Below are positions 1,204 through 57,066 of a DNA stretch of 61,107 bases, one piece after another; position 1 is the first letter of the stretch; every line of letters starts with the position of its first letter. The notes beneath the pieces are model-generated. The model did no database searches. It worked only from the letters and a program-made list of their open reading frames with translations, and had not been told where the DNA came from. The DNA is from Candidatus Hydrogenedens sp. (GTDB taxonomy: Bacteria > Hydrogenedentota > Hydrogenedentia > Hydrogenedentales > Hydrogenedentaceae). Location of the stretch: the NCBI GenBank assembly GCA_049968235.1, contig JBMFRC010000018.1:1-61107 (forward strand), in the 5' to 3' direction. The position numbers were made by a program, and so were the translations under genes.

Positions 1204-1266
1204 TATAACTATTTTTTAAACAATTATTTAAGGGGTTTTTATTGTATGTTGTCAGGGTGATTTGAA

Positions 1267-38795: not shown

Positions 38796-39976
38796 AATCC
38801 GGAAAAACCATTACAATTTGTGCTGTTCCCATTGGCAGGGAAAAGCCTATAATATGCTCGATAAAAGATGGAGTTATCACGCGAATAAAAGAAAATTCAA
38901 AAGGGAACTCCATTGATATGGGTAATGAAGAAACGATAATTGCTCCTTTGCTTTTTGATATACAGGTAAATGGAGGGTTTGGGATTAGTGTTCAGGATGA
39001 AAATTTAACCGAAGATAAGCTACTGAAACTTTCTGAAAAATTATTTCAATTAGGAATTGTTCGTTGGGTTCCTACTATCGTTTCAAACTCTATTGAAAAG
39101 ACAGAATTCCTTTGCGAAGTTATTGGAAATAGCCTGAAAAAAAATAAAGAATTATCCTTTTTTATTCCTGGAATACATCTGGAAGGTCCCTGGATTTCGC
39201 CGGAAGAGGGTCCTCGCGGAGCACATGCAAAAGAATATATAAGGCCTCCATCGGTAAAAGAATTTGAAAAATACCATAAATTAGCGAACGGTAAAATCCT
39301 TTATGTTACATTAGCACCTGAAGTCCCGAAAGCGATTCCATTTATACGATATTTAGTTTCCAGAGGGGTTCATGTATCTTTAGGGCATCATAATGCGAGT
39401 CTGGCTATTATGCAATCTGCGGTTGAGGCAGGGGCTACTCTTTGTACTCACATTGGTAATGGCATTCAAAATTACATTCATCGACACAATAACCCCATCT
39501 GGTATTCCCTATCAGAAGATAAGTTATCAGTTTCTGTTATTGCAGATGGGCATCACTTACCTCCAATAGTACTTAAAATTATTGCCCGATGTAAAAAGCC
39601 CAATAATGTAATCCTTGTCTCTGATGCTACCCGATTTATGGGAATGCCACCAGGAGTGTATCGGGAATTCGGTTCTGAGGTAGAACACAAAAAGGATGGA
39701 AAACTTTGCTTAAAAGGAACTCCATATCTTGCAGGAAGTGCATCATCCTTACTGGATTGTATTCCTATCTGGCAGAAGAATACATCATATTCATGGAATA
39801 AGTGCATTAAATGTGCATCATCTATCCCTGCAAAACTACTAAAAATAAAAATGCCACCTTTCCGTTTGTATAAAGGAGCAAAAGCAAACTTTATATGTGT
39901 TAAAATTAATAGAGAAAAGAGCAAATTGCTCCCTATCGGCGTATTTTGTAATGCTAAAAATTTCTTGTATATGTAA
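38792..39976 (+). CDS. nagA: N-acetylglucosamine-6-phosphate deacetylase
   Basis: DIQVNGGFGI and GIHLEGPWIS motifs. Start set to the ATG overlapping the M20 stop (ATGA) rather than the upstream TTG. Confidence 0.7.
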   Translation: MKSGKTITICAVPIGREKPIICSIKDGVITRIKENSKGNSIDMGNEETIIAPLLFDIQVNGGFGISVQDENLTEDKLLKLSEKLFQLGIVRWVPTIVSNSIEKTEFLCEVIGNSLKKNKELSFFIPGIHLEGPWISPEEGPRGAHAKEYIRPPSVKEFEKYHKLANGKILYVTLAPEVPKAIPFIRYLVSRGVHVSLGHHNASLAIMQSAVEAGATLCTHIGNGIQNYIHRHNNPIWYSLSEDKLSVSVIADGHHLPPIVLKIIARCKKPNNVILVSDATRFMGMPPGVYREFGSEVEHKKDGKLCLKGTPYLAGSASSLLDCIPIWQKNTSYSWNKCIKCASSIPAKLLKIKMPPFRLYKGAKANFICVKINREKSKLLPIGVFCNAKNFLYM

Positions 39977-40071
39977 AAACAAGGTTCTAAATGGAACTTA
40001 TTGTTATAAAATAAGTATTCTATATATAAAAAAGAGTTACAATAAATTAAACATGAGTTGGGAGAGTAGCA

Positions 40072-41760
40072 GTGCCCAAAGCCTATCTGGTTAAAGAGGA
40101 TGATGGAGAAAAATTCCCGGTTCATTCTCATTTAATCATAGGAAGAACAAAAGAGTGTAATATTGTAATTGAAGACCCCGCAGTGTCCCGTAAGCATTTT
40201 GAACTTGTCAGGAGTGAGGATAGTTATAAATGGAAGGATATGGGTAGTACCAATGGGACATTCGTTAATGGACAGAAAATGTTATCAGGTGAATTACATT
40301 CCGGGGATATGATTCAAATAGGGAAGACCCTTTTCCGATTTGAAATAGAGGAAAATAGTAAACCGACAAGAACCTCAGAAACGATAGGAGAAAAAGAAGA
40401 ACAACATTCTATTGTTGCACATTCTTTCCTTAGTATGGATGAAACTACGGTTTCTCCCGGGAAAGAACAACACGCAACCCTATTATTGGAGACCCTATGT
40501 AAGGTAATTAATGACATTTCTACCAATTTTGACCTTTGTGAATTACAAAATAAAATTATGGAAGCGACTTCCCATGTAATCCCTATAGACCATGGTGCTA
40601 TTCTGATTACTGACGAAGAAGGGAAAATACTTCCCTGTCCACAATGTTCCCGGGTACACCAATGGGAGGGAGGGCATCTGGTTGCTGTTCCTGTAAATCG
40701 CGTTCGTATCAGTAATACCATTATTTATAAGGTGGTGAAGGAACGACAGAGTTTGCTTTATCAGGACATTATGGACAATGATGACTTAAAGAGGGCAGTG
40801 AGTATTATTTCATTAAATGTGCAATCGGTTATTTGTGTTCCACTTCGTGCCAAAGAAAAAGTATTAGGCTTACTTTATATGGATACGGTCTCGGATAAAA
40901 ACCGATATTCGGCAGAAGAATTACTACTTGCTTCCGCAGTTGGAAATGCTTCCGGGTTAGCAATCGAAAATGTGAATATTTATCAGGAATTAATTGAAAA
41001 ATATAGGATGGAACAAGAACTACAAACAGCAGCAACAATTCAGCAGGGTTTCCTATTCAATAATTGGAGTTCTATTCCTAAAAATTGTGATATATTTGCC
41101 CAGACTTTTCCAGCAAAAGTAGTTGGGGGCGATTTCTTTGATGTAATATTGCTTCCCGAGAATCGTTTAGGTTTTATAGTAGGGGATGTTTCGGGCAAAG
41201 GAATGCCAGCTTCCCTTGCTATGGTGCGATTACTTACAGAATTTCGTATACAAGCCCAGCGACTATTATCACAAATAGAAGTACTTAAGGTCCTTAATGA
41301 AGACCTGTTCGAATATGGGCAACAAGGAATGTTTTGTTCCTTGTGTTATGTTGTCGTTAATCTAAAGACAGGCGAAGTTACCGCTGTAAATGCAGGGCAT
41401 CTACCCGTTTTATGGTGGCAAAATCATAAAACCGAATATTGTTTCCATCCATCAGGTCCTCCCTTAGGGGTTTTACCGAATACTGTATGGAAGGAAGAAA
41501 AAGACATCTTATCTAAGGAAGATGCCCTTATCATATTTACAGATGGAATTATTGAAGCCCGAAAAGAAGCCAATGATAAAGAAATAACAGATAGAGAATT
41601 TGGGATTGACAGATTAAAAAAGACTATCGAAAATTTACATTTTGAAAATGCAGAGAAGGCGGTTCAGAGTATCTTACAAAAAGTACAGAAATATACCGAA
41701 CCCAATCTTCCTCATGACGATTGCACACTATTACTATTCCGGTGGTTAAATCATGCGTGA
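40072..41760 (+). CDS. FHA-GAF-PP2C (SpoIIE/RsbU-type) serine phosphatase
   Basis: FHA domain GRTKECNIVIEDPAVSRKHFEL…STNGTFVNG; central GAF; PP2C GDVSGKGMPASLAM…DGIIEA. GTG start with GGAGAG Shine-Dalgarno. Confidence 0.8.
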   Translation: MPKAYLVKEDDGEKFPVHSHLIIGRTKECNIVIEDPAVSRKHFELVRSEDSYKWKDMGSTNGTFVNGQKMLSGELHSGDMIQIGKTLFRFEIEENSKPTRTSETIGEKEEQHSIVAHSFLSMDETTVSPGKEQHATLLLETLCKVINDISTNFDLCELQNKIMEATSHVIPIDHGAILITDEEGKILPCPQCSRVHQWEGGHLVAVPVNRVRISNTIIYKVVKERQSLLYQDIMDNDDLKRAVSIISLNVQSVICVPLRAKEKVLGLLYMDTVSDKNRYSAEELLLASAVGNASGLAIENVNIYQELIEKYRMEQELQTAATIQQGFLFNNWSSIPKNCDIFAQTFPAKVVGGDFFDVILLPENRLGFIVGDVSGKGMPASLAMVRLLTEFRIQAQRLLSQIEVLKVLNEDLFEYGQQGMFCSLCYVVVNLKTGEVTAVNAGHLPVLWWQNHKTEYCFHPSGPPLGVLPNTVWKEEKDILSKEDALIIFTDGIIEARKEANDKEITDREFGIDRLKKTIENLHFENAEKAVQSILQKVQKYTEPNLPHDDCTLLLFRWLNHA

Positions 41761-42190
41761 TGACTTTACAATTACTTTTCGTTCACATCCAAAACTATTA
41801 AAGCCTGTTCGGGCTTTAGTTCGTAATTACCTTGAGATGGCTCGTTTTTCACAGGATAAGATTGAGGATATTGTTTTAGGACTGGATGAAGCCTGTACAA
41901 ATTGTATTCGACATGCGTATCATGGGGCAAAGTCAGGAATTATTCAGTTATCCGCACGATTAGGAACGGTATGGCTGGAATTTGAATTACAGGATTGCGG
42001 AACATGTCCCCCTAAAGATTTTTTGCTTAGAGAAAAAAGAAAAAATATAACGTCTGAGAATCTAAAACCTCATGGACTCGGACTTATTATATTAAAAAGA
42101 GCCTTTGATGAAGTTTCTTTTCACATAAACGAGAATGGTGAAAACTGTTTGATATTAAGAGCACGAAGAAAAGCATTCAGGAAAGGTTAA
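41753..42190 (+). CDS. Anti-sigma-factor-type serine kinase (RsbW/SpoIIAB-like HATPase)
   Basis: LDEACTNCIRHAY N-box and G-box HGLGLIILKRAF; overlaps the phosphatase gene by 8 nt. Confidence 0.75.
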   Translation: MRDDFTITFRSHPKLLKPVRALVRNYLEMARFSQDKIEDIVLGLDEACTNCIRHAYHGAKSGIIQLSARLGTVWLEFELQDCGTCPPKDFLLREKRKNITSENLKPHGLGLIILKRAFDEVSFHINENGENCLILRARRKAFRKG

Positions 42191-42193
42191 CTA

Positions 42194-42517
42194 ATGTCGA
42201 TTGATATTCACACAATAGAAAAGGATGGAAATTATAAAATTCAGGTGTCCGGTCAGGTAGATTTGTATACATCTCCCAATCTGAGGAAAGCCATTCTGGA
42301 GTCTGTCGATAAATCAAAAGGTTCGGTTATTGTACAACTATCCCATGTAGAATATATGGATTCTTCCGGAGTTGCCACATTGGTAGAAGGACTTCGTTCT
42401 GCCACAAAACAAAAGAAATCATTCCAACTTTTATCCCCTTCTCATGCAGTTCGGAAAGTATTAAATCTATCGCGATTGGAAACGGTATTCACAGTCACAG
42501 AAAGTGATGAAGAATGA
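42194..42517 (+). CDS. STAS-domain protein (anti-sigma-factor antagonist type; positioned like MlaB)
   Basis: VEYMDSSGVATLVE with the conserved phosphorylatable Ser in DSSG; 107 aa. Confidence 0.8.
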   Translation: MSIDIHTIEKDGNYKIQVSGQVDLYTSPNLRKAILESVDKSKGSVIVQLSHVEYMDSSGVATLVEGLRSATKQKKSFQLLSPSHAVRKVLNLSRLETVFTVTESDEE

Positions 42518-43311
42518 TTAAGTATTTTTTGGGCAGTATAGGTCGAACTTTCTTAAATATTTTACATTCTGGACTTGTCGTTTGTGTTTTAATTATGGAT
42601 ACATTGAATTGGTTATTTTTGCAACCTGTATTAGGTCGAGGGTTAAGGTGGCGTAGTGCAGTGGAACATTTTGTAGAATATGGATTTCACTCAATACCAA
42701 TAGTCGGTTTAATTTCTTTACTGGTTGGGGTTATTATGGGGATGCAATCTGCATATACATTACAACAATGGGGTGCTACGATATTTATGGCAAATCTGGT
42801 AGGAATTTCAGCATTACGAGAATTAGCACCGTTAATGTCTGCCATTCTTATTACAGGGCGGAGTGGTTCCGCGATTACTGCCGAAATAGGAACTATGAAA
42901 GTTTCAGAAGAAGTCGATGCTCTAATGGTGATGGGACTGAACCCTGTTAAATTTTTAGTTGTCCCAAAGTTTTTAGGGATGGTAATTGCTGTTCCCTGTG
43001 TTACAGTGCTTTCGATGGCTATAATGATTGGAGGGGGATTTATCGTAGCGGTGGGTATTCTCGGTATTGATTTCTGGGCATACTTCGACCAGACCGCAAG
43101 TGCTTTAGTTCCTAAAGATTTATTTTCGGGTATGGTCAAGAGCGTATTTTTCGGCTTAACTATTTGTTGGGTCGGTATCTATCGTGGTTTTCAGGTCGAA
43201 GGAAGTGCGGAAAGTGTCGGTAAAATGACCACTTCTTCCGTTGTTACTTCTATTTTTACCATAATAATTGTAGATTTAGTCTGGACAGCCTTATTTTACT
43301 TTACGGAATGA
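42514..43311 (+). CDS. mlaE: MlaE-family ABC transporter permease
   Basis: About 5 TM segments with the MlaE-type EVDALMVMGLNPVKFLVVPKFLG segment; ATGA overlap with the STAS gene. Confidence 0.8.
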   Translation: MIKYFLGSIGRTFLNILHSGLVVCVLIMDTLNWLFLQPVLGRGLRWRSAVEHFVEYGFHSIPIVGLISLLVGVIMGMQSAYTLQQWGATIFMANLVGISALRELAPLMSAILITGRSGSAITAEIGTMKVSEEVDALMVMGLNPVKFLVVPKFLGMVIAVPCVTVLSMAIMIGGGFIVAVGILGIDFWAYFDQTASALVPKDLFSGMVKSVFFGLTICWVGIYRGFQVEGSAESVGKMTTSSVVTSIFTIIIVDLVWTALFYFTE

Positions 43312-44114
43312 TGAATAACAATAACAATGAATATATAATTGAAGTAGAGAACCTTGTCGTTCAGTATGGAACAAGGCGGGTTCTGGATAATATCTCTTTT
43401 AAAGTAAAAAAAGGAGAGATATTTGTTATTTTAGGGGGAAGTGGATGTGGCAAAAGCACTCTTTTACGGACACTGGTAGGTCTAATTCGTCCCCACTCCG
43501 GAAAAATTATAATGTTTGGCAAAGATGTTACTACAATGAGCACTCAGGAACAAATAGAACTTCGCAAACGGATAGGTATGTGTTTCCAGAATTCCGCTTT
43601 ATTTAATTCTATGACTGTGGGTGAAAATGTCGCCTTACCATTAAAGGAACATACCCGTCTTGCGGAATCGACCATCGATATTATGACACAAATTAAATTA
43701 GATCTGGTGGGACTGGGTGGTTGCGCAAATCTGTATCCATCACAATTAAGTGGTGGAATGAAAAAAAGAGCCGGTATTGCACGGGCTATGGCTTTAGACC
43801 CGGAAATTATATTTTATGACGAACCCTCCTCCGGTCTTGACCCTATCGTTGCTGCGGGTTTAGACTATCTTATCCGAAAGATGCAGAATACCTTTAATTT
43901 AACCAGTGTCGTGGTTACTCACGATTTGGAAAGTGTTCAAATTATTGCAGACCGAGTTTGTCTATTGCATGCAGGAAAAATCGTTGCAATTGGCGATTTA
44001 AAGGAAATGGAATTAAATACCGATTCCTATCTCCGCCAATTTTTTACACGAACACCGACTCCGGAAGAAAATCAATCTCCTTCCACAATTTTAGATTCTT
44101 TTGAAGATATGTAA
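43308..44114 (+). CDS. mlaF: MlaF-type ABC transporter ATP-binding protein
   Basis: Walker A GGSGCGKST, signature LSGGMKKR, Walker B IIFYDEPSSGLD. Confidence 0.85.
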   Translation: MMNNNNNEYIIEVENLVVQYGTRRVLDNISFKVKKGEIFVILGGSGCGKSTLLRTLVGLIRPHSGKIIMFGKDVTTMSTQEQIELRKRIGMCFQNSALFNSMTVGENVALPLKEHTRLAESTIDIMTQIKLDLVGLGGCANLYPSQLSGGMKKRAGIARAMALDPEIIFYDEPSSGLDPIVAAGLDYLIRKMQNTFNLTSVVVTHDLESVQIIADRVCLLHAGKIVAIGDLKEMELNTDSYLRQFFTRTPTPEENQSPSTILDSFEDM

Positions 44115-44148
44115 TAATAAAACAAATAAAAAGATATGGTGGTTTAAG

Positions 44149-45180
44149 ATGAATTCAAAAGCGAGTGAATTTACAAAAAAGGAAATCATTGCGGGCTTCT
44201 TCATCCTGATTAGCATTGTTGTCCTTGTGTCTTTTATCCTTTTGGTGCGGGGTTATCGCCCAAATGCAGGAACAAAAATCTATTACGCCAAATTTAAAAA
44301 TACATTAGGTTTGGACCGCGGTGCAGATGTGCGTTTTGGTGGGTTAAAAATTGGGAAAGTTACGGATATTTATCCCGATAGAGAGGACCCAAGTCAGGTG
44401 TGTGTTAAATTATCTATATCTCCAGAGATTGTCTTAAATCAAAAATGTATTGCCACAGTAGAGCAAGTTTCTCTAACCTCAGCGAGGCACCTTGAAATTT
44501 CAACAGGAGAAGCAAATGCCCCTAAGTTAGAAGATGGAAGTATAATACCTTCTATAAACAAAACGGGTAGTTTGGTAGAACTCCCTGATTTTTCAAGCAC
44601 AATTAAAAAAGTGGAGAAACTTTTAGATGATTTGACAGATTTTTTGGGTATGGATGAACTCCATAAGGCAGAAGCGACAAAAGAAACCAAAGCACGAGTT
44701 ACCGAACTGACTCAACAAATCAGTGGAACTTTAGAAAAGGGCACTGATTTTATTGAAGAACTTAATAGCCTGGTCAAAGAACAAAAACCCCAAATTGCAG
44801 ATATTTTGAAAAACATTAATGATATAGAAAAAGATACAAAAAAAGTTGTAGAACAGGTAAATACGATAATTTCAGAAAATCGAGGCTCGATACATGACTC
44901 ATTGACATCCGTAAAAGATATTATGGCAAAGGTAAAATCCATATCAGATAATAGTGCAGATGATTTAGAAAAAATATTAAATAATATAGAAAAGATTACG
45001 GGAAATGTGGATAATTTGTCCTCCGAAGCAAAAAATTGGATGAGTAAAAATAAAAGAAATATTGATGAACTTATTCTGGATATTAAAGAAACCATTCGTA
45101 ATTTGCGTCTACTGTCTCAAACTTTAGCAGAACAACCTCAATCTATACTTACAGGGAAAGTCCCGGGAGGTAAAAAATAG
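44149..45180 (+). CDS. mlaD: MlaD/MCE-domain protein with long C-terminal coiled coil
   Basis: N-terminal TM IIAGFFILISIVVLVSFI, then MCE domain (YYAKFKNTLGLDRGADVRFGGLKIGKV). The alternative start at 44101 would overlap mlaF. Confidence 0.75.
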   Translation: MNSKASEFTKKEIIAGFFILISIVVLVSFILLVRGYRPNAGTKIYYAKFKNTLGLDRGADVRFGGLKIGKVTDIYPDREDPSQVCVKLSISPEIVLNQKCIATVEQVSLTSARHLEISTGEANAPKLEDGSIIPSINKTGSLVELPDFSSTIKKVEKLLDDLTDFLGMDELHKAEATKETKARVTELTQQISGTLEKGTDFIEELNSLVKEQKPQIADILKNINDIEKDTKKVVEQVNTIISENRGSIHDSLTSVKDIMAKVKSISDNSADDLEKILNNIEKITGNVDNLSSEAKNWMSKNKRNIDELILDIKETIRNLRLLSQTLAEQPQSILTGKVPGGKK

Positions 45181-45181
45181 A

Positions 45182-45784
45182 ATGTTTTTTTCTCTTCTTT
45201 ATACAAAAATTCATCGACAGGAAAGTATATATCTTTTAGGTTGCATTTGTATTGTAGTCATTTTTTCTGGTTGTATATCAGGACCCTCTTTGCATTATTA
45301 CACTCTGGAAAATACAATTAAACCTATAGAGGATACATCTCCGCTATGTATTCAGGTAGCAAGTATCCGTTTAGCAGAGTCACTAAAACGAAAAGAGATA
45401 ATGGTCCGGAAAAATTCAGTTCAGGTGGATTATTACTCTGTTCATCTATGGGCTTCGAGTTTAGAGGAATTAATAACAAATAAAATAAATCAGACTTTTT
45501 TGTGTTATCAATCTGAAAAAAAATTACCGGATTATTATTTACATATTGATGTACTTAATTTTGAAGAAGTTGAAACATCGAATTCCCCTATTGCGTATGT
45601 TAAATATGTTGTCCAATTTTTAAATCCGGGGAATATGGAAGTTTTAGCCCAAAAGATTTATTCCATAGAAAAAGAATCTACCAGTAAAGGTGTCCCTGAA
45701 TTGGTAAAAACTTTTTCAAGTTGTGTTGATGAAATAATAAATAAAATATATGCAGATGCCAGGAATATTAATAAACCCGAATAG
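45182..45784 (+). CDS. ABC-transport auxiliary lipoprotein (DUF330-like) of the Mla/MCE operon
   Basis: Lipobox IFSGC; about 200 aa, sited directly after the MCE gene as in many mce loci. Confidence 0.5.
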   Translation: MFFSLLYTKIHRQESIYLLGCICIVVIFSGCISGPSLHYYTLENTIKPIEDTSPLCIQVASIRLAESLKRKEIMVRKNSVQVDYYSVHLWASSLEELITNKINQTFLCYQSEKKLPDYYLHIDVLNFEEVETSNSPIAYVKYVVQFLNPGNMEVLAQKIYSIEKESTSKGVPELVKTFSSCVDEIINKIYADARNINKPE

Positions 45785-45801
45785 AAGGAATTTTTTCATC
45801 C

Positions 45802-46593
45802 ATGCCACGAATAGATATGGATGATTTTTTAAGTGATTATGAAAGGGCTGTTTGTTACTTTACACTACCCAAATTAGTGTATCACATTAGTCCCATTAGT
45901 ATATTTATTTACTTTATATGTGTTATTTTTGCTTTTTCATTAACCTTCTGGGGATTGATTTTAGAAAATCAACAACTTTCATATCTAGGAACATTTATAT
46001 TAATTATCGTTACATTATCCGGTTTTATCTTATTCACAGGGAGAACCTTGATAAGTGAATTCCGATGGCGAAAATGTCTTGCAGAAGCACATGGTTCTGC
46101 TTCAGAAGAATCCTTAGACCTGCCAGACCCTTTTGAAAATCATGAACTTTACCTTATTCCAGTAAAAGAAAGAGAAAGTATGTTATTTCCCTGCGTGAAT
46201 CGTGCCGGAGAAATTCAATATTTTGTCGAGAAAAAAAATCAGGGTTGGCTTGTAAAAGATGCTTTGGGAAATGAGATATGTAGAATTTTCAGGAAATGTA
46301 GTTGGTTCTCTATTGCACTTACATCAAAAGTACCTAAAATAATTGATATCCAGAAAGATAGCCAGCGAATTGCACATATCAACCCCCGATTCTCCTTATT
46401 TAGTTCCGTATATATAGTGACCCTTTTTGAGAAGGATAATGAAACCTATCAAATTCTACAGTCCGGTATTTTTAACCGTGGCGAATTGGTAGGGAGAATT
46501 TATCAAGTTCGTAATCACTTATATCTTGATATTAAAAAAGACCATTTTAATCTCGGATTGTTAGCCTTCTTTATCAGTTGCCAGGACTATTAA
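45802..46593 (+). CDS. Hypothetical 2-TM membrane protein
   Basis: ORF with two hydrophobic helices; no recognisable motif. Confidence 0.35.
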   Translation: MPRIDMDDFLSDYERAVCYFTLPKLVYHISPISIFIYFICVIFAFSLTFWGLILENQQLSYLGTFILIIVTLSGFILFTGRTLISEFRWRKCLAEAHGSASEESLDLPDPFENHELYLIPVKERESMLFPCVNRAGEIQYFVEKKNQGWLVKDALGNEICRIFRKCSWFSIALTSKVPKIIDIQKDSQRIAHINPRFSLFSSVYIVTLFEKDNETYQILQSGIFNRGELVGRIYQVRNHLYLDIKKDHFNLGLLAFFISCQDY

Positions 46594-46627
46594 TTGGTAT
46601 AGTCAATAAGTCAACAAATAAGGAGGA

Positions 46628-47977
46628 ATGTATATGAAAAATCACCATACATTGTCAAGAAGAGAGTTTATTAAAACTGCATCCATCATTCCACCTTCCC
46701 TATCCATAGGTATCCTGTTAAATCAGACGCAACATATAAAAGAAAAAGCAAGAATTGGAGTTGTAGGAGTAGGTAATCGAGGCCACTTCTTAGTTGATTT
46801 ACTAACGCAATGTTCTGATGTTGAAATACGGGCTATTGCGGACATAAAAAAAGAACATGCAGAACGAACAAAATCATTGTGTGCGCAGAGACAAAATTTT
46901 GTTCCGGAGATTTACACAAAAGGAGAAACAGACTTTGAAAAATTGGTGAAGCGAGAAGATATTGATTGTGTCTTGTGTGCTACTTCGTGGGAATGGCATA
47001 CACCGGTGGCTTTATCCGCTATGAAGGCGGGAAAACTGACTGCCCTTGAAGTCCCACCTGCAACAACACTCAAGGAGTGTCGAGCATTAATTGAGACTTC
47101 AGAGAAACAAAAGTATCCTTGTTTTATATTGGAAAATGTATGTTACTTTAAAGAACCATTAACGATTCTTCGAATGATACGAGAAGGTTATTTTGGTGAA
47201 GTGGTTTTTGCAGAAGGTGGATACCAGCATGATTGCCGATTCCTGTTAGCGGATGAGACGGGTAAATTAAATTGGCGTGGTAAAGGAATTATTAACAGAG
47301 TAGGCAACACTTACCCTACTCATCCTATAGGACCTATTTCCCAATGGTTTAATATAAATCGGTGAGACCGTTTTATTTCCTTGTATAGTGTTTCAACTCC
47401 TTCTTTAGGTATCCATGAATATTTTGTAAAAAAATATGAACCGGAACATGAGCTATCAAAAATGAAGATAAAACATGGCGATATAAATACCACGATACTA
47501 CAGACATTTTTAGGTAAGACCATTACCTTATATCACGATACATCATTACCACGACCCTATGACTCTATTTTTAGAGTTCAGGGAACAAAAGGGATTTATT
47601 TTGGCTCTTTACAAAAAATATATTTGGAAGATGTAAGTCCGCAAAAAGATACCTGGGAAGATTTTGAACCATATACAAAAAAATATGCCCATCCAATTTG
47701 GTCTGCTTATGAATCAGCAGGGGGTTCTACTGCGGGGCATGGATTAGGTGATTTCATTACTGTGCGAGAATTGGTTCGTGCTATTCGAACAGGAGAAACA
47801 TCTCTTCCGGATGTTTATGATTCGGCTACATGGTCGGCTATTATTGAACTATCAGAGCAATCCGCTTCTGCTGGTGGAAAGAAAGTCGATTTTCCTGATT
47901 TCACAAATGGGCGTTGGAAAACCAATCAACCCATCCCTGTTATTCAATTACCCCAACAATGGCTTGCTTCTTGTTGA
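46628..47977 (+). pseudogene. Gfo/Idh/MocA-family NAD-dependent oxidoreductase with Tat signal (GH109-like), interrupted by a single in-frame TGA at 47363-47365
   Basis: Tat motif SRREFIK; RIGVVGVGNRGHF Rossmann region. The ORF track gives two pieces (46628-47365 and 47381-47977) in the same frame, 753 nt apart; the C-terminal domain continues directly after the stop. Confidence 0.6.
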
Positions 47978-48048
47978 ACTTAAAACATACACAAGGCAAA
48001 AATAAAAATATATCTGCTGTCCCACAGGTGCAAAGTATTTCCTGCAAA

Positions 48049-48198
48049 TTAATCTTCTTTTGAGGAAAGTGTTTCATCCGATTTTAACGCAAGTAACATC
48101 TCTTTTATATCGAAAACACCACGCACACCTACATAAAAGGTCATCGTAAAATACCAAACAACACAAAACATTACAAGGAGTAGCCAGAAATAAGACAT
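48049..48198 (-). CDS. 49-aa single-TM micro-ORF, in the same frame as the SSS transporter and 5 codons after its TAA stop
   Basis: MSYFWLLLVMFCVVWYFTMTFYVGVRGVFDIKEMLLALKSDETLSSKED (hand-translated reverse complement). AAAGGA 9-14 nt upstream of the ATG. Confidence 0.35.
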   Translation of the reverse strand: MSYFWLLLVMFCVVWYFTMTFYVGVRGVFDIKEMLLALKSDETLSSKED

Positions 48199-48213
48199 AT
48201 AACAAAATCCTTT

Positions 48214-49716
48214 TTAATAAGAAGGTTGTTTCTTGTTTACTATAAATTTTTTGAGTAACGAACCAATAATCATTGCAGTACCAGAAGCCAGATAAGAGGC
48301 AATCCCTGATTTGTAGGGACCAACATGTTGTGCCCATTCAGCAGTTGCAGGAAGTTGTTGTAAAACCAGAAAGCCAATGGGGAAAAGGGCTCCTAAAATA
48401 ATAGCGCCCATAGCCCCCCAATTATTGGCATCTTTCCAGTAACAGCAGGCAATTAACAAAACAGACATACTGGATAAGTAAATAGTTCCCGTTACCCCCA
48501 GATAGTCCCATAAATTTCCTTTCAGAGGATACCATAATCCGTAAAATAGCAAGAACATTCCAATACATCCCACAATAAAACGATTTATGAGGACACCTTT
48601 CTTTTCTGACCACTGTTTCTTTCTACGGAAAGGAGCCAGAATATCGTTATAAATAACACCGCCCCATGTCAGCATATAAGCAGAATCCGTGGACATATCC
48701 GCAGCAAGCATTCCCGCTATCAAAATTCCCATCATACCTGTAGGTAAGAATATACTTAAAAACTTTGGCATGGCATAAAGCGTGTTTCCTCCAATTTGTT
48801 CAGGTGTTAAGGTGGCTAATGCTGCAATTCCCCATAATCCGGGGATAAGAAACCGTGCTGTAAAAAAGAAACTTGTATGCATGTAAATCTGTTTGCCCGT
48901 TTTGGTGCTTTTTGCCGAAAGAATCCGTTGAATAACTGCTTGCCATGTCAACACAACAGCAAACTGTAAACATAAATTAAACAATACAAATTCCCATCCG
49001 CGTTCCATTAAAAAAGGATTAAACCCTGCAGGTCCATGATGTTTTTGCACCGCTTCTATCAAAGGTGTCCAGCCAATTTTTGCAAAGATTAAGACCGTAA
49101 CCACCAGCATACTTAAACTCATGATGATAAATTGTAGAAAGTCAGTTACAAGCACAGAAAGCATTCCGCCGAGGACGGTATAGAGAGCAACAATGACGAG
49201 TAGAATTGTCATCATTATTTCAAGATGATATGATTGGGCAAAGGCTTGTGGGTCAAATCCAGCGGTAAGCAATAGGAATTCTCCGCCCGTTCGTAAAAAT
49301 ACACCCATATTCAATAATCCTCCGAGAACGATAACCACTCCTGCTAACCATCGGATTGTAGGACCGAATCGTTTTTCAAATAATTCTGGAATGGTCATTA
49401 CACCTGCGTCGCGTAAAGGCTTAATACAAAAACCTGTAAAACCAACGACAAGCATGGCTATTGTTTGTAGTATGCCCGGTGTGGCTCCTGCAAACCCCAT
49501 CTTAAAACCATTTTGGGCTGTGTACATGCAGGTAACAATTCCGAACTCCGTTGCTGCTAACGAAGCAATACCTAAATAAAGGTTCATTTCTCGCCCGGCT
49601 ACAAGATAATGTTCTACTTTCCCAACATATTTTCGAACAGCCAATCCTGCGATAATCGTTAATAGGAGATAAAGACCTACGATACCTGCATCAAGAAAGG
49701 TAAAATGACTGAGCAT
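48214..49716 (-). CDS. Sodium:solute symporter (SSS/SLC5) family transporter
   Basis: 13-14 TM segments, YLVAGR motif and conserved SSS core (GGMLSVLVTDFLQ). Confidence 0.85.
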   Translation of the reverse strand: MLSHFTFLDAGIVGLYLLLTIIAGLAVRKYVGKVEHYLVAGREMNLYLGIASLAATEFGIVTCMYTAQNGFKMGFAGATPGILQTIAMLVVGFTGFCIKPLRDAGVMTIPELFEKRFGPTIRWLAGVVIVLGGLLNMGVFLRTGGEFLLLTAGFDPQAFAQSYHLEIMMTILLVIVALYTVLGGMLSVLVTDFLQFIIMSLSMLVVTVLIFAKIGWTPLIEAVQKHHGPAGFNPFLMERGWEFVLFNLCLQFAVVLTWQAVIQRILSAKSTKTGKQIYMHTSFFFTARFLIPGLWGIAALATLTPEQIGGNTLYAMPKFLSIFLPTGMMGILIAGMLAADMSTDSAYMLTWGGVIYNDILAPFRRKKQWSEKKGVLINRFIVGCIGMFLLFYGLWYPLKGNLWDYLGVTGTIYLSSMSVLLIACCYWKDANNWGAMGAIILGALFPIGFLVLQQLPATAEWAQHVGPYKSGIASYLASGTAMIIGSLLKKFIVNKKQPSY

Positions 49717-49821: not shown

Positions 49822-50250
49822 TTAAGTACTAATGGACTGATTGGTATTCTTTAAACGGTTACAAAGAATATGGATAATGTTTAACAGTAAACGAACAGCT
49901 GTTTTTTTCGTTAATAATCTTTCAAAACTTGTCTCACTGAATACTAACAAGGAACTATCCATAATCGCTTTTGCCGTCGCAGACCGAGGTTGCTTTGTTA
50001 ATAAAGCCATCTCTCCAAAAATTTCTCCTTCTCCTAACTGAACAATTTCCTTCTCCCCCTGATATATCCCGATACTTCCTTGAATGATGAGATATACCTG
50101 GCTCCCGATGCTTCCCTGATAGAAAATCACCTCATCTTTTTGAAAATGGACAACCAGCCCCTGCTTCATGAGTTTATGAACTTCTTCAGGATGCAATCCC
50201 TGAAAAAGATGAGGACTAACTATTTGCTCTTCAATCTTTTTTTTATCCAT
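49822..50250 (-). CDS. Stand-alone cyclic-nucleotide-binding (CAP effector) domain protein
   Basis: GEGEIFGEMALL…RSATAKA phosphate-binding cassette; no HTH follows. Confidence 0.8.
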   Translation of the reverse strand: MDKKKIEEQIVSPHLFQGLHPEEVHKLMKQGLVVHFQKDEVIFYQGSIGSQVYLIIQGSIGIYQGEKEIVQLGEGEIFGEMALLTKQPRSATAKAIMDSSLLVFSETSFERLLTKKTAVRLLLNIIHILCNRLKNTNQSIST

Positions 50251-50273
50251 GAAAAATTGTAAGGTTTATTTAT

Positions 50274-51131
50274 TTAAATCCAATAGACGAACCGTCTGCA
50301 TGTAGGGCATGTATATAAATTGTCGGTTTCCTGTCGAACACGTTGAACAAAATCTGTATGCAGAGCCATATAACACCCGTGGCAACGGTCTCCCTCAATG
50401 GGAACAACTGCAGGGGGTTTTTTCATTTTCAACTTATCATAATGTTGTAGGGTTTTCTCTGAAATCAATGAACGAAGATTATCAATTTTCATCTGTATCT
50501 GTTTTTTACCCCGTGCATTATTTTTTAACTCTTCTTCGTGTAGTTGTAAACGGATGAGTAAATGAATTTCCGGAAAGGGTGAAGATATTGTTACAGGTTT
50601 TTCTTCATTAACAGAGATTTTCTTTTTAGGATGGATTAATTTAGAAGGCTCATCCGATTTAGTAAGAAGTTCCAATAATTTATCATAGATGGCTTTGGCT
50701 GTAGTCAGTTTCATGACTGCCTGAATATTTTCTTTTTTATGAAACACAGTAGAAATACTTGAGGCTAAACTTAAGTAAATAGAATTTTGTGTCGGCGGAT
50801 AACAAATCATAATGGCAAAGAAAACAGGTTTGCGGTCCTGAGCCACAAAATCAATTCCATCAGGAATACGAGCCACCGCTGTCATTACTTTGTTTAAATC
50901 ACGAACACTTGCATGGGGTAAAGCCAGACCATTACCGAGCCCGGTACTGTCAACCGATTCTCTTTCAATTATTGCAGATAGAATATTTACTCCTTCGGGT
51001 ATTTTATTTTCCTTTTCAATAGCATCAACTAATGAAGCGATAACTTCTTGTTTCGATTTAGGTTCAAGTGATGGGATAATTGTTTTAATGTTAAAATATT
51101 TGTCAAATTCCATATATTGTCCCTTTTTCAT
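50274..51131 (-). CDS. PTS EIIA type-2 (PtsN/EIIA-Ntr-like) domain fused to a coiled-coil and C-terminal C4 zinc ribbon (zf-RING_7/DUF164-like)
   Basis: N-terminal 150 aa with LGNGLALPHA active-site His. C-terminal CHGCYMALHTDFVQRVRQETDNLYTCPTCRRFVY matches the CxxC…CxxCgR-ILY zinc-ribbon pattern. Confidence 0.6.
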   Translation of the reverse strand: MKKGQYMEFDKYFNIKTIIPSLEPKSKQEVIASLVDAIEKENKIPEGVNILSAIIERESVDSTGLGNGLALPHASVRDLNKVMTAVARIPDGIDFVAQDRKPVFFAIMICYPPTQNSIYLSLASSISTVFHKKENIQAVMKLTTAKAIYDKLLELLTKSDEPSKLIHPKKKISVNEEKPVTISSPFPEIHLLIRLQLHEEELKNNARGKKQIQMKIDNLRSLISEKTLQHYDKLKMKKPPAVVPIEGDRCHGCYMALHTDFVQRVRQETDNLYTCPTCRRFVYWI

Positions 51132-56217: not shown

Positions 56218-57066
56218 TTGGAAGACAAGGATATCATAAAAAATCCTTTAATAGAAAAAGGGTTATATACATATATTGCGGAAATTTCAAAAATTCCTCT
56301 TCTAAGCGCAGAAGAAGAGAGACGATTGGCTTTCTGTATTCAAAAGGGGGATGGAAAAGCACGACGCAAACTTATTTTATCCAATCTTCGTTTAGTTGTC
56401 AGTATTGCAAAGAAATATATTTATTATGGTGTGTCCTTTTTAGACTTGATAGAAGAAGGGAATATCGGACTGATGAAAGCCGTTGAGAATTTCGACCCAC
56501 GACGCGGAACAAAATTCTCAACATATGCTACATGGTGGATCCGTCAGGCAATCACAAGAGCACTTTCCAATCAAAGTCGAACAGTTCGTGTCCCGGTTTA
56601 TTTAAATGAAAGTTTAGCGAGATACCGAAAAGCATTGGAAGAACATTATATAAAAACAGGTTCATACCCAACTGTTCAAGAAATATCAAAACTCTTAAAA
56701 ATAACTCTTGATGAAGCGGAACAACTTCAGGTTTATCTCGATTCTGTGATGTCCTTTGATTTCGTTCAAACAATTGATGTTAGTGAAGAATCATCATCAA
56801 TTATCCGGTCTAACGCCGCATTAAGGACAGATAGTTTCGTCCAGGATGTAGAAAAAGAACATGACCTTGAATTTCTTATCAGTCTTTTACCTGAAACCGA
56901 AGCAAAGGTTATTCGTTACCGTTATGGACTCGTTGATGGGAGACCTTATACATTGGCAGAAACAGGCAAAGTATTAAATATGACGCGTGAACGGGTTCGA
57001 CAACTTGAACGATTGGCTTTGCGATTTTTGCGTCAATATGTTGAAGAACATAAAGAACTTTTTTAA
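56218..57066 (+). CDS. Sigma-70 family RNA polymerase sigma factor (regions 2-4 only)
   Basis: Region 2 ([16 protein letters not shown]; [17 protein letters not shown]) and region 4 HTH ([23 protein letters not shown]). TTG start after a ~315-bp AT-rich leader. Confidence 0.8.

What the first reader, a model, noticed from the sequence alone, without database searches (positions are those of the whole stretch)
40072..45784. Partner-switching module (FHA-GAF-PP2C phosphatase, RsbW-like kinase, STAS) translationally welded to an MlaE-MlaF-MlaD-lipoprotein operon
Seven genes are packed with 0-8 nt gaps or overlaps. The phosphatase overlaps the kinase (41753 vs 41760). The kinase stop is followed 3 nt later by the STAS start. 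The STAS gene overlaps MlaE by ATGA (42514-42517). MlaE overlaps MlaF by ATGA (43308-43311), and then MlaD and a DUF330-type lipoprotein follow. The STAS protein has the phospho-Ser signature DSSG of anti-sigma antagonists. In canonical Mla systems, however, the STAS protein MlaB is a structural subunit that binds the MlaF ATPase. No sigma factor is encoded in this operon; the only sigma factor gene in the window is about 14 kb away. The most economical reading is that a Ser-phosphorylation partner switch controls a phospholipid (MCE/Mla-type) transporter rather than a sigma factor. The kinase and phosphatase would toggle whether the STAS protein is available to the ABC ATPase. The FHA input domain on the phosphatase would further tie this to Ser/Thr-kinase signalling, and the GAF domain to small-molecule sensing. 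I am not aware of a described phospho-regulated Mla system
Basis: partly seen in the sequence, partly recalled or inferred. Interest (0 to 1): 0.75.

Follow-up and report, generated by a model that had tools for sequence, protein, structure and literature searches.

The report
Phospho-switch hard-wired to lipid transporter
A phosphatase, a kinase and their small STAS-domain substrate protein are encoded in one tightly packed operon with an Mla/MCE-type lipid ABC transporter, an arrangement conserved in hundreds of mostly uncultured bacteria, which implies the transporter is switched by phosphorylating its STAS subunit, an idea proposed for E. coli MlaB but never tied to a kinase.

Summary
40072-45784 holds seven co-directional, almost gap-free genes: FHA-GAF-PP2C phosphatase, RsbW-like Ser kinase, RsbV-like STAS (DSSG, Ser57), MlaE, MlaF, a long MlaD and a PqiC-like lipoprotein. 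An eighth conserved gene (45802-46593) encodes a Tubby-like membrane protein.

The order is not accidental. In 80 species-level genomes (Hydrogenedentota, Acidobacteriota and others), STAS lies next to MlaE in 80/80. The kinase is present in 78/80 and the phosphatase in 77/80. No sigma factor was found in 1.22 Mb of flanks. The same search does find sigma factors beside generic STAS genes.

More distant STAS relatives share a DSSG[VI]A[TA]LVEGL signature and also sit in Mla operons of other designs. One is a canonical-type MlaF-E-D-STAS-MlaC operon in Desulfobacterales, with a divergent GAF-PP2C/kinase pair.

Ser57 aligns with E. coli MlaB Thr52, the centre of the MlaB-MlaF interface. MlaF keeps the C-terminal "handshake" motif.

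Best reading (confidence about 0.6): unphosphorylated STAS acts as an MlaB-like subunit that enables MlaF, the kinase switches it off, and the signal-gated phosphatase switches it on. Physical STAS-MlaF binding was not testable here. I found no paper describing this. It is a new variant of known kinds.

The parts
39977..40071 (+). AT-rich 95-nt intergenic region upstream of the first gene. It is the probable promoter and 5' boundary of the operon.
   Evidence: Read directly from the sequence. The consensus promoter scan was not above chance, so the boundary is inferred from the gap only.
40072..41760 (+). FHA-GAF-PP2C (SpoIIE/RsbU-type) Ser phosphatase, 562 aa. Domains: FHA aa 22-84, GAF aa 155-299, PP2C aa 362-558.
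   Evidence: Pfam. In 67 orthologues the following are invariant or near-invariant: the FHA pThr-binding residues (GR24-25, S39-R40-x-H42, S59-x-N61-G62) and the PP2C metal-site motifs (GGDFFD 352-357, GDVSGKG 371-377, TDG 490-492, HDD 548-550).
41753..42190 (+). RsbW/SpoIIAB-like GHKL Ser kinase, 145 aa.
   Evidence: Pfam HATPase_c_2 6e-24. Best PDB matches are RsbW 6m36_A (4e-8) and SpoIIAB. The N-box E46..N50..H54, D81-x-G83 and G108-L-G-L are conserved in 67 orthologues.
42194..42517 (+). Single-domain STAS protein, 107 aa. The predicted phospho-acceptor is Ser57 (codon 42362-42364), in the invariant motif Y-M-D-S-S-G-V-A-T-L-V-E-G-L.
   Evidence: Pfam. Family alignments. PDB profile search: TM1442 1e-22, RsbV 6e-14, MlaB 0.5. 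AF2 model pLDDT 92; best match RsbV TM 0.88/0.93, MlaB TM 0.70-0.74/0.78-0.80. Ser57 aligns with E. coli MlaB Thr52.
42514..43311 (+). MlaE-family ABC permease, 265 aa. Its start overlaps the STAS stop (ATGA).
   Evidence: Pfam MlaE 1e-73. Lies directly downstream of STAS in 80 of 80 genome loci.
43308..44114 (+). MlaF-family ABC ATPase, 268 aa, with a C-terminal extension (aa ~245-268, nt 44040-44111).
   Evidence: Pfam ABC_tran. Best PDB matches include A. baumannii, P. aeruginosa and E. coli MlaF and mycobacterial MceG. Walker A/B, signature and H-loop motifs are conserved. Family-wide tail is QFFxRxPDxE...[DE]Y[IA]RSLTG (ILDSFEDM in the window's clade), comparable to E. coli Y261xxxL265.
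44149..45180 (+). Long MlaD: N-terminal TM anchor, one MCE domain (aa ~58-136 of the 359-aa ORF) and about 200 aa of helical extension. The ORF is open from TTG 44101; ATG 44149 is the likelier start.
   Evidence: Pfam MlaD 5e-14 plus spurious coiled-coil-type hits over aa 163-332. Ribosome-binding site GGTGG lies before ATG 44149. Orthologues are 339-346 aa. A faint 'Helical_needle' hit occurs in related loci.
45182..45784 (+). PqiC/DUF330-type (ABC_trans_aux) lipoprotein, 200 aa. Signal peptide with an FSGC lipobox (Cys31).
   Evidence: Pfam ABC_trans_aux 9e-15. Sequence read directly. Recovered as an ORF after MlaD in 65 of the 80 genome loci.
45802..46593 (+). Probable eighth gene: a 263-aa membrane protein with two TM helices and a Tubby/LURP-one/scramblase-like beta-barrel.

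Best explanation
The locus encodes an Mla/MCE-type envelope lipid ABC transporter. Its parts are the MlaE permease, the MlaF ATPase, a long periplasm-spanning MlaD and a PqiC-like outer-membrane lipoprotein. Its cytoplasmic STAS subunit is the substrate of a dedicated kinase/phosphatase pair encoded in the same operon.

Proposed cycle:
1. Unphosphorylated STAS binds the helical subdomain of MlaF through its helical face, with Ser57 at the centre. This is how E. coli MlaB binds with Thr52. The binding stabilises or activates the ATPase on MlaE, so the transporter is ON.
2. The RsbW-like kinase captures STAS on the same face and phosphorylates Ser57. Phospho-STAS can no longer bind MlaF, so the transporter is OFF.
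3. The FHA-GAF-PP2C phosphatase removes the phosphate when its inputs permit and resets the system. The inputs would be a phospho-Thr protein read by the FHA domain and a small ligand read by the GAF domain.

In this model STAS is the component that switches partners, between the kinase and MlaF, and no sigma factor is involved.

Shown here: gene content, intact catalytic and phospho-acceptor residues, very strong conserved linkage, and absence of a linked sigma factor.
Inferred: STAS-MlaF contact, the sign of regulation, the signals and the lipid substrate.
For: 1. All seven domains are confirmed. Catalytic motifs of the kinase, PP2C, FHA and MlaF, and the DSSG acceptor, are invariant in 64-76 orthologues.

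2. In 80 species-representative genomes, STAS is immediately followed by MlaE in 80/80. The kinase is upstream in 78/80 and the PP2C in 77/80. Median intergenic gaps run from -25 to +10 nt. Flanking genes differ between Hydrogenedentota and Acidobacteriota, so the cassette is the conserved unit.

3. STAS stays with MlaE when the kinase and PP2C are absent from the locus (L022, L066) and when the operon is circularly permuted (L079).

4. There were no sigma-70-family hits in the 90 loci held (L001-L090: 80 genome loci plus 10 look-up loci; 1.22 Mb). The same query finds sigma genes 0.4-3.5 kb from 12 generic STAS genes.

5. Seven more distant STAS representatives were picked at spaced ranks. 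All 6 informative ones lie beside MlaE-MlaF, and 6 of 7 have a HATPase_c_2 kinase. Their PP2Cs carry different input domains: GAF alone, HDOD, or FHA-GAF.

6. Desulfobacterales-type loci have the order MlaF-MlaE-short MlaD-STAS-MlaC, so STAS occupies the MlaB slot of a canonical-type operon. A divergent kinase is present in 6/6 loci with enough upstream DNA, and a PP2C in 5/6 (GAF-SpoIIE by Pfam in L102).

7. 120 of the 150 best STAS representatives share DSSG[VIL]A[TAVS]L[VIL]. Only 4 have the RsbV/SpoIIAA-like DS[STA]GLG.

8. Ser57 aligns with MlaB Thr52. In E. coli, Thr52 is at the centre of the MlaF interface and T52E weakens binding (PMC7367683).

9. MlaF keeps a conserved C-terminal extension with a Y-x3-L motif, like the E. 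coli 'handshake' helix that packs between MlaB and MlaF.

10. Brucella MpcE is a STAS-MlaE fusion in a transporter of the same MlaE/MlaF/long-MlaD/PqiC-like design (PMC12436622).

11. Between Hydrogenedentota and Acidobacteriota, STAS is conserved more like MlaE/MlaF (54% versus 64-66%) than like its kinase and phosphatase (36-37%).
Against: - No physical test of STAS-MlaF binding was possible.
- By sequence and fold the STAS is an anti-sigma antagonist (TM1442 1e-22, RsbV TM 0.88). Its similarity to MlaB is only remote (E 0.5; TM 0.70-0.74).
- No STAS-MlaE fusion appears among the best 150 relatives. The Brucella fusion is therefore an analogy of architecture, not orthology.
- In E. coli, MlaB T52A is non-functional yet still binds MlaF. 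The authors note this is hard to reconcile with simple phosphoregulation.
- One related subgroup (kinase-STAS-UbiD) includes a locus, L113, with no Mla gene within 7 kb.
- A partner for the kinase encoded elsewhere in the genome cannot be excluded. ECF-type sigma factors were not specifically searched for.
- Operon linkage alone does not give the direction of information flow.
Confidence: 0.6

Rival explanations
1. Classical wiring with the transporter in the place of sigma. The RsbW-like kinase itself binds and inhibits MlaF or MlaE as an 'anti-ATPase'. Unphosphorylated STAS relieves this by sequestering the kinase. STAS never contacts the transporter.
For: In canonical partner switches the kinase is the output-binding component (established knowledge of RsbW/SpoIIAB). 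The kinase is present in 78/80 loci and in most other Mla-linked designs. The STAS is RsbV-like, not MlaB-like.
Against: - STAS, not the kinase, is the gene that never separates from MlaE (80/80). It persists in L022 and L066, where no kinase is nearby.
- In the Desulfobacterales design, STAS sits inside the mla operon in the MlaB slot, while the kinase is in a separate, divergent transcription unit.
- Solved Mla complexes and the Brucella fusion show STAS domains as the transporter-bound element.
Confidence: 0.15
2. The transporter acts as a sensor. The state of the Mla-type machine (lipid flux or envelope stress) controls how much STAS is free. The real output is the kinase acting on a sigma factor or another regulator encoded elsewhere. 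Signal would flow from the transporter to gene expression.
For: The linkage data are symmetric with respect to direction. RsbW-type proteins usually have a second partner. The window does contain a sigma factor 14 kb from the kinase.
Against: - No sigma factor is linked in any of the 90 loci, although the search detects them next to generic STAS genes.
- The window's sigma is not near the cassette in Acidobacteriota.
- The phosphatase carries its own lineage-specific input domains (FHA-GAF, GAF, HDOD). That is the usual signature of signal entry through the phosphatase, not through the transporter.
Confidence: 0.12
3. Co-transcription without direct regulation. The partner switch and the transporter are separate functions that share an operon, for example because both belong to one stress regulon.
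For: Operon membership alone never proves physical interaction. No interaction was measured here.
Against: - The linkage survives across at least two phyla with unrelated flanks, through a circular permutation, and in at least four other operon designs with different MlaD types and phosphatase inputs.
- Start/stop overlaps between STAS and MlaE are conserved (median gap 2 nt).
- The STAS subfamily has its own invariant helix-2 signature.
Confidence: 0.08

Closest known systems
E. coli / A. baumannii / P. aeruginosa MlaFEDB (+MlaC, MlaA), with MlaB as the STAS subunit of MlaF
   Same: MlaE, MlaF and an MCE-domain MlaD, plus a small STAS protein encoded in the operon. MlaF has a C-terminal extension. 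The STAS Ser/Thr after the conserved Asp is at the equivalent position (Ser57 = Thr52). A phosphomimetic at that site weakens MlaF binding in E. coli (PMC7367683).
   Different: The STAS here is RsbV-like in sequence and fold. A kinase and a phosphatase are encoded with it, whereas none is known for MlaB. MlaD is long (343 aa versus 183 aa). There is no MlaC or MlaA in the window, and a PqiC-like lipoprotein is present instead.
Brucella abortus Mpc (Mla-Pqi chimeric) system, MpcEFDA (PMC12436622)
   Same: The same transporter architecture: MlaE-type permease associated with a STAS domain, MlaF-type ATPase, a single-MCE protein with a long helical extension (331 aa), and a PqiC-like lipoprotein as the last gene.
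   Different: In Brucella the STAS is fused to the N-terminus of the permease, and that paper reports no kinase or phosphatase. Here STAS is a separate protein whose stop overlaps the permease start, and it comes with a kinase and a phosphatase. No fusion was found among the best 150 relatives of this STAS.
Bacillus RsbU/RsbP-RsbV-RsbW-SigB and SpoIIE-SpoIIAA-SpoIIAB-SigF partner switches
   Same: The same three protein families, with intact catalytic and acceptor residues. The phosphatase is the component that carries the sensory domains.
   Different: No sigma factor is linked. Gene order is phosphatase-kinase-STAS. The STAS helix-2 signature is DSSGVATLVEGL rather than DS[ST]GLG. The neighbour in the position where sigma would be is an ABC transporter.
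Partner-switch-like modules with non-sigma outputs, e.g. Anabaena HenR/All4160 STAS-glycosyltransferase (PMC13555669). From my own knowledge: Vibrio SypE/SypA, Pseudomonas HsbR/HsbA and Bordetella BtrU/W/V.
   Same: Phosphorylation of a STAS domain directly controls a non-transcriptional effector. The STAS, not the kinase, is the output element. In Anabaena, phosphorylation is inhibitory.
   Different: The effector here would be an ABC lipid transporter. I found no such case in the searched literature.
Long-MlaD 'bridge' Mla systems (Veillonella parvula MlaEFD; PMC10665443)
   Same: An MlaEFD core without MlaA or MlaC, and an elongated MlaD thought to span the periplasm.
   Different: Veillonella has no STAS partner and a C-terminal beta-barrel on MlaD. 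Here there is a helical extension plus a separate lipoprotein, and a phospho-switch.

Membership tests
Partner-switching module (RsbU/RsbW/RsbV type) | Single-domain STAS protein with a phosphorylatable Ser/Thr after a conserved Asp (DS[ST]G) | tested here: met
   D56-S57-S58-G59 is invariant in 76 sequences. Profile match to the phosphorylatable antagonists TM1442, RsbV and SpoIIAA. Fold TM 0.88 to RsbV.
Partner-switching module (RsbU/RsbW/RsbV type) | GHKL Ser kinase (HATPase_c_2) with N, G1 and G2 boxes | tested here: met
   Pfam 6e-24. RsbW and SpoIIAB are the best PDB hits. E46/N50/H54, D81xG83 and G108LGL are conserved.
Partner-switching module (RsbU/RsbW/RsbV type) | PP2C/SpoIIE phosphatase with metal-binding Asp motifs and an N-terminal input domain | tested here: met
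   SpoIIE 6e-44, FHA 6e-21, GAF 4e-9. GGDFFD, GDVSGKG, TDG and HDD are conserved.
Partner-switching module (RsbU/RsbW/RsbV type) | A sigma factor (or other target) bound by the kinase, usually encoded in the same operon | tested here: not met
   No sigma-70-family hit in the 90 related loci, with a positive control. The window's sigma is 14 kb from the kinase and is not co-conserved. A target elsewhere in the genome, and ECF sigmas, were not testable.
Partner-switching module (RsbU/RsbW/RsbV type) | Actual phosphorylation and dephosphorylation of the STAS Ser by the neighbouring enzymes | not testable with these tools
   Requires biochemistry: Phos-tag, mass spectrometry, or an in vitro kinase assay.
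Canonical Mla system (MlaFEDCB + MlaA) | MlaE permease, MlaF ATPase and an MCE-domain MlaD in one operon | tested here: met
   Pfam MlaE 1e-73, ABC_tran 3e-34, MlaD 5e-14. MlaF's best PDB hits include the MlaF chains of solved MlaFEDB complexes.
Canonical Mla system (MlaFEDCB + MlaA) | Short MlaD (~180 aa) working with the periplasmic chaperone MlaC and the OM lipoprotein MlaA | tested here: not met
   MlaD is 343-359 aa with a helical extension. No PF05494 (MlaC) or PF04333 (MlaA) hit among the 48 window ORFs scanned. The rest of the genome was not available.
Canonical Mla system (MlaFEDCB + MlaA) | MlaB: minimal STAS (4 strands, 3 helices) bound to the MlaF helical subdomain | tested here: inconclusive
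   A STAS is present at the operon position next to MlaE, and Ser57 aligns with Thr52. However, it is RsbV-like with a fifth strand, and its profile E-value to MlaB is 0.5. Binding to MlaF was not testable.
Canonical Mla system (MlaFEDCB + MlaA) | MlaF C-terminal extension with a hydrophobic 'handshake' helix | tested here: met
   A tail of 22-25 residues follows QFF. Family motif is [DE]Y[IA]RSLTG, compared with E. coli DY261HADL265L. In the window's clade the motif is ILDSFEDM.
Mla-Pqi chimeric (Mpc-like) transporter | MlaE + STAS, MlaF, a single-MCE protein with a long helical extension, and a PqiC-like (ABC_trans_aux/DUF330) lipoprotein as the last transporter gene | tested here: met
   Pfam and gene order. 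Lipobox FSGC. Compared with the description of MpcEFDA. Difference: STAS is not fused. Orthology to Brucella Mpc was not tested.

The most novel reading that the evidence does not exclude
This locus is one member of a large, previously unrecognised class: Mla/MCE lipid ABC transporters whose STAS subunit is a true phospho-switch.
- The class has a dedicated RsbW-like kinase and a PP2C phosphatase with interchangeable sensor domains (FHA-GAF, GAF, HDOD).
- It is spread over at least Hydrogenedentota, Acidobacteriota and Desulfobacterales, and over at least five operon designs. One of those is a canonical-type MlaF-E-D-STAS-MlaC operon.
- If so, phosphoregulation of the STAS-ATPase contact is an old and general way to gate envelope lipid transport.
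- The kinase-less MlaB of Proteobacteria, with its conserved Thr52, would then be a derived, simplified form.
Probability: 0.4. Interest if true: 0.85.

Novelty: new variant of a known kind. Interest (0 to 1): 0.72.

Why it matters
How bacteria regulate lipid traffic between their two membranes after translation is essentially unknown. The 2020 MlaFB structure paper (PMC7367683) raised phosphorylation of MlaB Thr52 as an "intriguing possibility", but no kinase, phosphatase or evidence was available.

These operons supply natural systems in which the kinase, the phosphatase and the STAS substrate are encoded together with the transporter. That makes the hypothesis directly testable by reconstitution.

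The finding would also add an ABC transporter to the short list of non-sigma outputs of partner-switch modules. It would show that Ser/Thr-kinase signalling (through the FHA domain) and small-ligand signalling (through the GAF domain) can feed into envelope lipid homeostasis or lipid uptake.

A close STAS relative exists in at least two cultured Desulfobacterales species, Desulfobacula toluolica Tol2 and Desulfospira joergensenii. If their gene context matches (not yet checked), experiments need not depend on uncultured Hydrogenedentota.

Tried and rejected
1. **STAS-MlaE fusions as Rosetta-stone evidence.** A whole-library profile search with the STAS alignment found none among the best 150 hits. 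The Brucella fusion is therefore used only as an architectural analogy.
2. **Complex modelling of STAS with MlaF or the kinase.** Not possible.
3. **Inter-protein covariation between STAS and MlaF.** Considered and dropped. About 70 paired sequences are too few, STAS helix 2 and the MlaF helical subdomain are nearly invariant, and the phylogenetic structure is strong.
4. **Promoter and terminator scan of 39500-48300.** Nothing above the shuffled expectation, so operon boundaries rest on the intergenic gaps only.
5. **Idea that the window's sigma factor (56218-57066) is the partner.** Not supported. It is not co-conserved with the cassette outside close relatives, and no sigma lies in any related locus.
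6. **Idea that the cassette is a chance juxtaposition or a recent insertion.** Rejected. G+C content matches the surroundings and the order is conserved in 80 genomes.
7. **A second Mla locus or MlaC/MlaA.** None in the window.
8. **Gene context in cultured Desulfobacula toluolica.** Could not be fetched because the look-ups were exhausted.
9. **Taxonomic labels.** 'Nitrospirales' on several MAG records conflicts with 66-89% protein identity to Hydrogenedens loci. I did not count those records as a separate phylum.

Full report
**1. What is in the window**

The region 40072-45784 carries seven co-directional ORFs on the + strand. Pfam assigns all of them clearly:

| Coordinates | Product | Pfam E-values |
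|---|---|---|
| 40072-41760 | FHA-GAF-SpoIIE(PP2C) phosphatase | 6e-21, 4e-9, 6e-44 |
| 41753-42190 | HATPase_c_2 kinase | 6e-24 |
| 42194-42517 | STAS | 5e-16 |
| 42514-43311 | MlaE | 1e-73 |
| 43308-44114 | ABC ATPase (MlaF) | 3e-34 |
| 44101/44149-45180 | MlaD | 5e-14 |
| 45182-45784 | ABC_trans_aux lipoprotein | 9e-15 |

- The exception is MlaD, which more plausibly starts at ATG 44149. That start has a GGTGG ribosome-binding site and gives 343 aa, matching orthologues. It leaves a 34-nt gap after MlaF.
- DSSG is at STAS residues 56-59, and the Ser57 codon is 42362-42364.
- The lipoprotein has a signal peptide and an FSGC lipobox.
- A further gene (45802-46593) follows 17 nt later.
- The only sigma factor in the 61-kb window is 56218-57066.
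- No MlaA, MlaC, second STAS or second Mla operon was found in the 48 window ORFs scanned.
- The window comes from a Candidatus Hydrogenedens-like genome. One protein is 100% identical to a partial Ca. Hydrogenedens sp. MAG protein. The closest locus is Ca. Hydrogenedens terephthalaticus, at 83-96% amino-acid identity.

**2. Are the parts functional?**

I aligned 64-76 orthologues per protein, taken from related loci.
- Kinase: keeps the N-box (E46, N50, H54), D81-x-G83 and G108-L-G-L.
- PP2C: keeps GGDFFD, GDVSGKG, TDG and HDD.
- FHA domain: keeps the phospho-Thr-binding residues (G24-R25, S39-R40-x-H42, S59-x-N61-G62).
- MlaF: keeps Walker A/B, the signature motif and the H-loop.
- STAS: keeps an invariant Y-[MI]-D-S-S-G-V-A-T-L-V-E-G-L.

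In the PDB, the kinase's best relatives are RsbW and SpoIIAB. The STAS family matches TM1442 (1e-22), RsbV (6e-14) and SpoIIAA, but MlaB only at E about 0.5. An AF2 model of the STAS (pLDDT 92) superposes best on RsbV from the RsbV-RsbW complex (TM 0.88/0.93). It superposes less well on MlaB (TM 0.70-0.74/0.78-0.80).

The regulatory trio is therefore a bona fide, apparently active RsbU/RsbW/RsbV-type module.

**3. Is the linkage conserved?**

Five context look-ups gave the same seven-gene order with unrelated flanking genes. They cover a Thermoanaerobaculales MAG, two Hydrogenedentota and two unnamed metagenome contigs.

A scan of one genome per species found at least 566 genomes encoding a relative, and 80 loci were retrieved. 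By record label:

| Label | Loci |
|---|---|
| Hydrogenedentota | 34 |
| Acidobacteriota (Thermoanaerobaculia, Sulfomarinibacteraceae, other) | 23 |
| 'Nitrospirales/Nitrospiraceae' (label doubtful: e.g. L010 is 66-89% identical to the window's proteins) | 13 |
| Methylomirabilota, Thermodesulfobacteriota, Chondromyces, FCB group | 1 each |
| Unnamed | 6 |

I ran tblastn with the window's proteins against these loci.
- STAS is immediately followed by MlaE in 80/80.
- The kinase is upstream in 78/80 and the PP2C in 77/80.
- MlaF, MlaD and the lipoprotein follow wherever the contig allows.
- Median intergenic distances run from -25 to +10 nt.

The exceptions are informative.
- L022 and L066 keep STAS-MlaE-MlaF-MlaD-lipoprotein but have no kinase or phosphatase upstream.
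- L081 lacks only the phosphatase.
- L079 is circularly permuted (MlaF-MlaD-x-lipoprotein-PP2C-kinase-STAS-MlaE) yet keeps all genes together.

STAS-MlaE is therefore the invariant core.

**4. Is a sigma factor involved?**

A tblastn search with the window's sigma factor found nothing at E <= 1 in the 90 loci then held (1.22 Mb).

The same query serves as a positive control. In a later metagenome sample, it detected sigma genes 0.4-3.5 kb from 12 generic STAS genes (<= 35% identity to the anchor STAS) that have no Mla neighbour. ECF sigmas would probably be missed.

**5. How wide is the phenomenon?**

A library-wide profile search with the STAS family gave 17 representatives at E < 1e-30 and then a continuum.
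- Of the best 150, 120 carry DSSG[VIL]A[TAVS]L[VIL]. Only 4 carry the RsbV/SpoIIAA-like DS[STA]GLG.
- I sampled seven representatives at spaced ranks, choosing them before seeing their contexts:
  - L091: kinase-STAS-MlaE-MlaF-MlaD-lipoprotein.
  - L093: kinase (divergent) | MlaF-MlaE-short MlaD-STAS-MlaC.
  - L094: GAF-PP2C-kinase-STAS-MlaE-MlaF-Band7-NfeD.
  - L095: kinase-STAS-MlaE-MlaF-MlaD-TPR.
  - L096: STAS-MlaE-MlaF.
  - L097: PP2C-kinase-STAS, then the contig ends.
  - L098: kinase-STAS-HDOD-PP2C-MlaE-MlaF-MlaD.

A metagenome scan anchored on the L093-type STAS (Desulfobacterales) returned the following.
- 13 close loci, all with the order MlaD-STAS-MlaC.
- All 6 of these with enough upstream DNA have a divergent kinase, and 5 of 6 also have a PP2C. 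Pfam on L102 confirms GAF-SpoIIE and HATPase_c_2.
- A soil group with (PP2C-)kinase-STAS-MlaE-MlaF.
- A kinase-STAS-UbiD group. L114 in that group has YhdP-like/MlaE/MlaD/TPR genes directly upstream. L113 has no Mla gene within 7 kb, which is a genuine exception.

The window's operon is thus one design within a broader, modular association. The constant elements are kinase, STAS and MlaE/F. The variable elements are the phosphatase's input domains and the periplasmic part of the transporter.

**6. What kind of transporter is it?**

MlaF is closest to the MlaF chains of solved MlaFEDB complexes and to mycobacterial MceG. MlaD is about twice the E. coli length, with a helical C-terminal half (a faint 'Helical_needle' hit in relatives). 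The last transporter gene is a PqiC/DUF330-type lipoprotein.

[quoted passage not shown] It also matches the 'long MlaD' bridge-type systems that dominate outside Proteobacteria, where MlaA, MlaB and MlaC are rare (PMC10665443).

**7. Mechanism**

In E. coli, MlaB binds the MlaF helical subdomain through its three helices, with Thr52 at the centre.
- T52E reduces MlaF binding.
- MlaB is needed for MlaF to stay on the complex.
- The MlaF C-terminal helix (Y261, L265, L266) packs in the groove between MlaB and MlaF.
- The authors explicitly proposed phosphoregulation but had no kinase (PMC7367683).

Here:
- A profile-profile alignment to the verified E. coli MlaB sequence places Ser57 on Thr52.
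- The MlaF tail is conserved across the family (QFFxRxPDxE...[DE]Y[IA]RSLTG) and has the same Y-x3-L spacing.
- Between phyla, STAS is conserved at 54% identity. That is closer to MlaE/MlaF (64-66%) than to its own kinase and phosphatase (36-37%). This fits a surface constrained by several partners.

I therefore propose that STAS alternates between MlaF (unphosphorylated, transporter on) and the kinase, which phosphorylates it (transporter off). The sensor-bearing phosphatase resets the switch.

Precedent for a phospho-STAS acting directly on a non-sigma effector exists in Anabaena, where HenR acts on the STAS-glycosyltransferase All4160 (PMC13555669).

Shown: gene content, intact motifs, linkage, and absence of a linked sigma factor.
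Inferred: the STAS-MlaF contact, the sign of regulation, the signals and the substrate.

**8. Rivals**

I keep three rival explanations:
- The kinase itself is the transporter-binding inhibitor.
- The transporter is a sensor that feeds a distant sigma factor or other target.
- The modules are merely co-transcribed.

The pattern of gene retention argues against the first: STAS, not the kinase, never leaves MlaE, and STAS sits inside the mla operon in the Desulfobacterales design. The lack of any linked sigma factor, together with sensory domains on the phosphatase, argues against the second. The recurrence of the association in independent operon designs argues against the third.

**9. Novelty**

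Full-text searches combined MlaB/Mla/MCE with STAS, partner-switching, RsbW, phosphatase or phosphoregulation. They returned only the hypothesis in PMC7367683 and no description of a kinase/phosphatase-linked Mla system. A 2021 review of STAS-only proteins does not mention MlaB or ABC transporters. An older survey noted STAS genes and STAS fusions in mce-like operons but no kinases (PMC1810536).

The components are all of known kinds. The combination and its breadth appear new, so I rate it a new variant of a known kind, with specialist interest because it makes an open question testable.

**10. Side observation**

Noticed in passing
[not shown]
   Followed up: partly
window 46628-47365 and 47381-47977 (+): A GH109-like oxidoreductase/glycosidase (GFO_IDH_MocA + Glyco_hydro_109_C) is split into two adjacent ORFs. 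An intact 457-aa homologue exists in L089. The split could be a frameshift, a stop codon, a pseudogene or an assembly error.
   Followed up: no
L093, L100, L102, L106-L108, L110 (e.g. L102 2755-8025): Desulfobacterales-type loci have a canonical-style MlaF-MlaE-short MlaD-STAS-MlaC operon, with a divergently transcribed RsbW-like kinase and a GAF-PP2C. Cultured relatives of this STAS are Desulfobacula toluolica Tol2 (WP_014957225.1, 74% identity) and Desulfospira joergensenii (WP_153307430.1, 63% identity). Their gene context was not checked.
   Followed up: partly
L079 2098-9112: The cassette is circularly permuted (MlaF-MlaD-x-lipoprotein-PP2C-kinase-STAS-MlaE) in a long-read Hydrogenedentota MAG. 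All genes are still contiguous and on one strand.
   Followed up: partly
L114 488-8775; L113 6483-8784: A kinase-STAS-UbiD subgroup. In L114 the pair is preceded by a YhdP-like protein, MlaE, a 241-aa ORF with no Pfam hit (in the position where an ATPase would be expected), a long MlaD and a TPR protein. In L113 no Mla gene lies within 7 kb.
   Followed up: partly
window 44040-44111 (MlaF tail) and loci L007-L013: The MlaF C-terminal motif is [DE]Y[IA]RSLTG in most of the family. In the Hydrogenedens-genus clade, which includes the window, it is replaced by ILDSFEDM-like sequences. The STAS helix 3 also differs in that clade (R87, N91). This reflects a single lineage event, so it is not evidence of co-evolution.
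   Followed up: no
L010, L013, L014, L018 and other loci: MAG records labelled 'uncultured Nitrospirales/Nitrospiraceae' carry cassette proteins up to 66-89% identical to the Hydrogenedens window. The labels are probably unreliable.
   Followed up: no
window 9038-13045 (-) and 57711-61031 (-): Two very large proteins (1335 and 1106 aa) with multiple eukaryote-style immunoglobulin domain hits (Ig_3, I-set, Ig_2, V-set).
   Followed up: no
window 49822-51131 (-); L006 14175-15484: A small cNMP-binding protein and a PTS-EIIA-2/zinc-ribbon protein lie about 4 kb downstream of the cassette, both in the window and in another Hydrogenedentota MAG. They are not present in the Acidobacteriota loci. Any relation to the phosphatase's GAF domain is unknown.
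   Followed up: no
window 586-3387 (+): An HTH-response regulator and a PAS-histidine kinase-receiver hybrid, followed by a histidine-phosphatase-family ORF, lie at the start of the window. They are unrelated to the finding.
   Followed up: no
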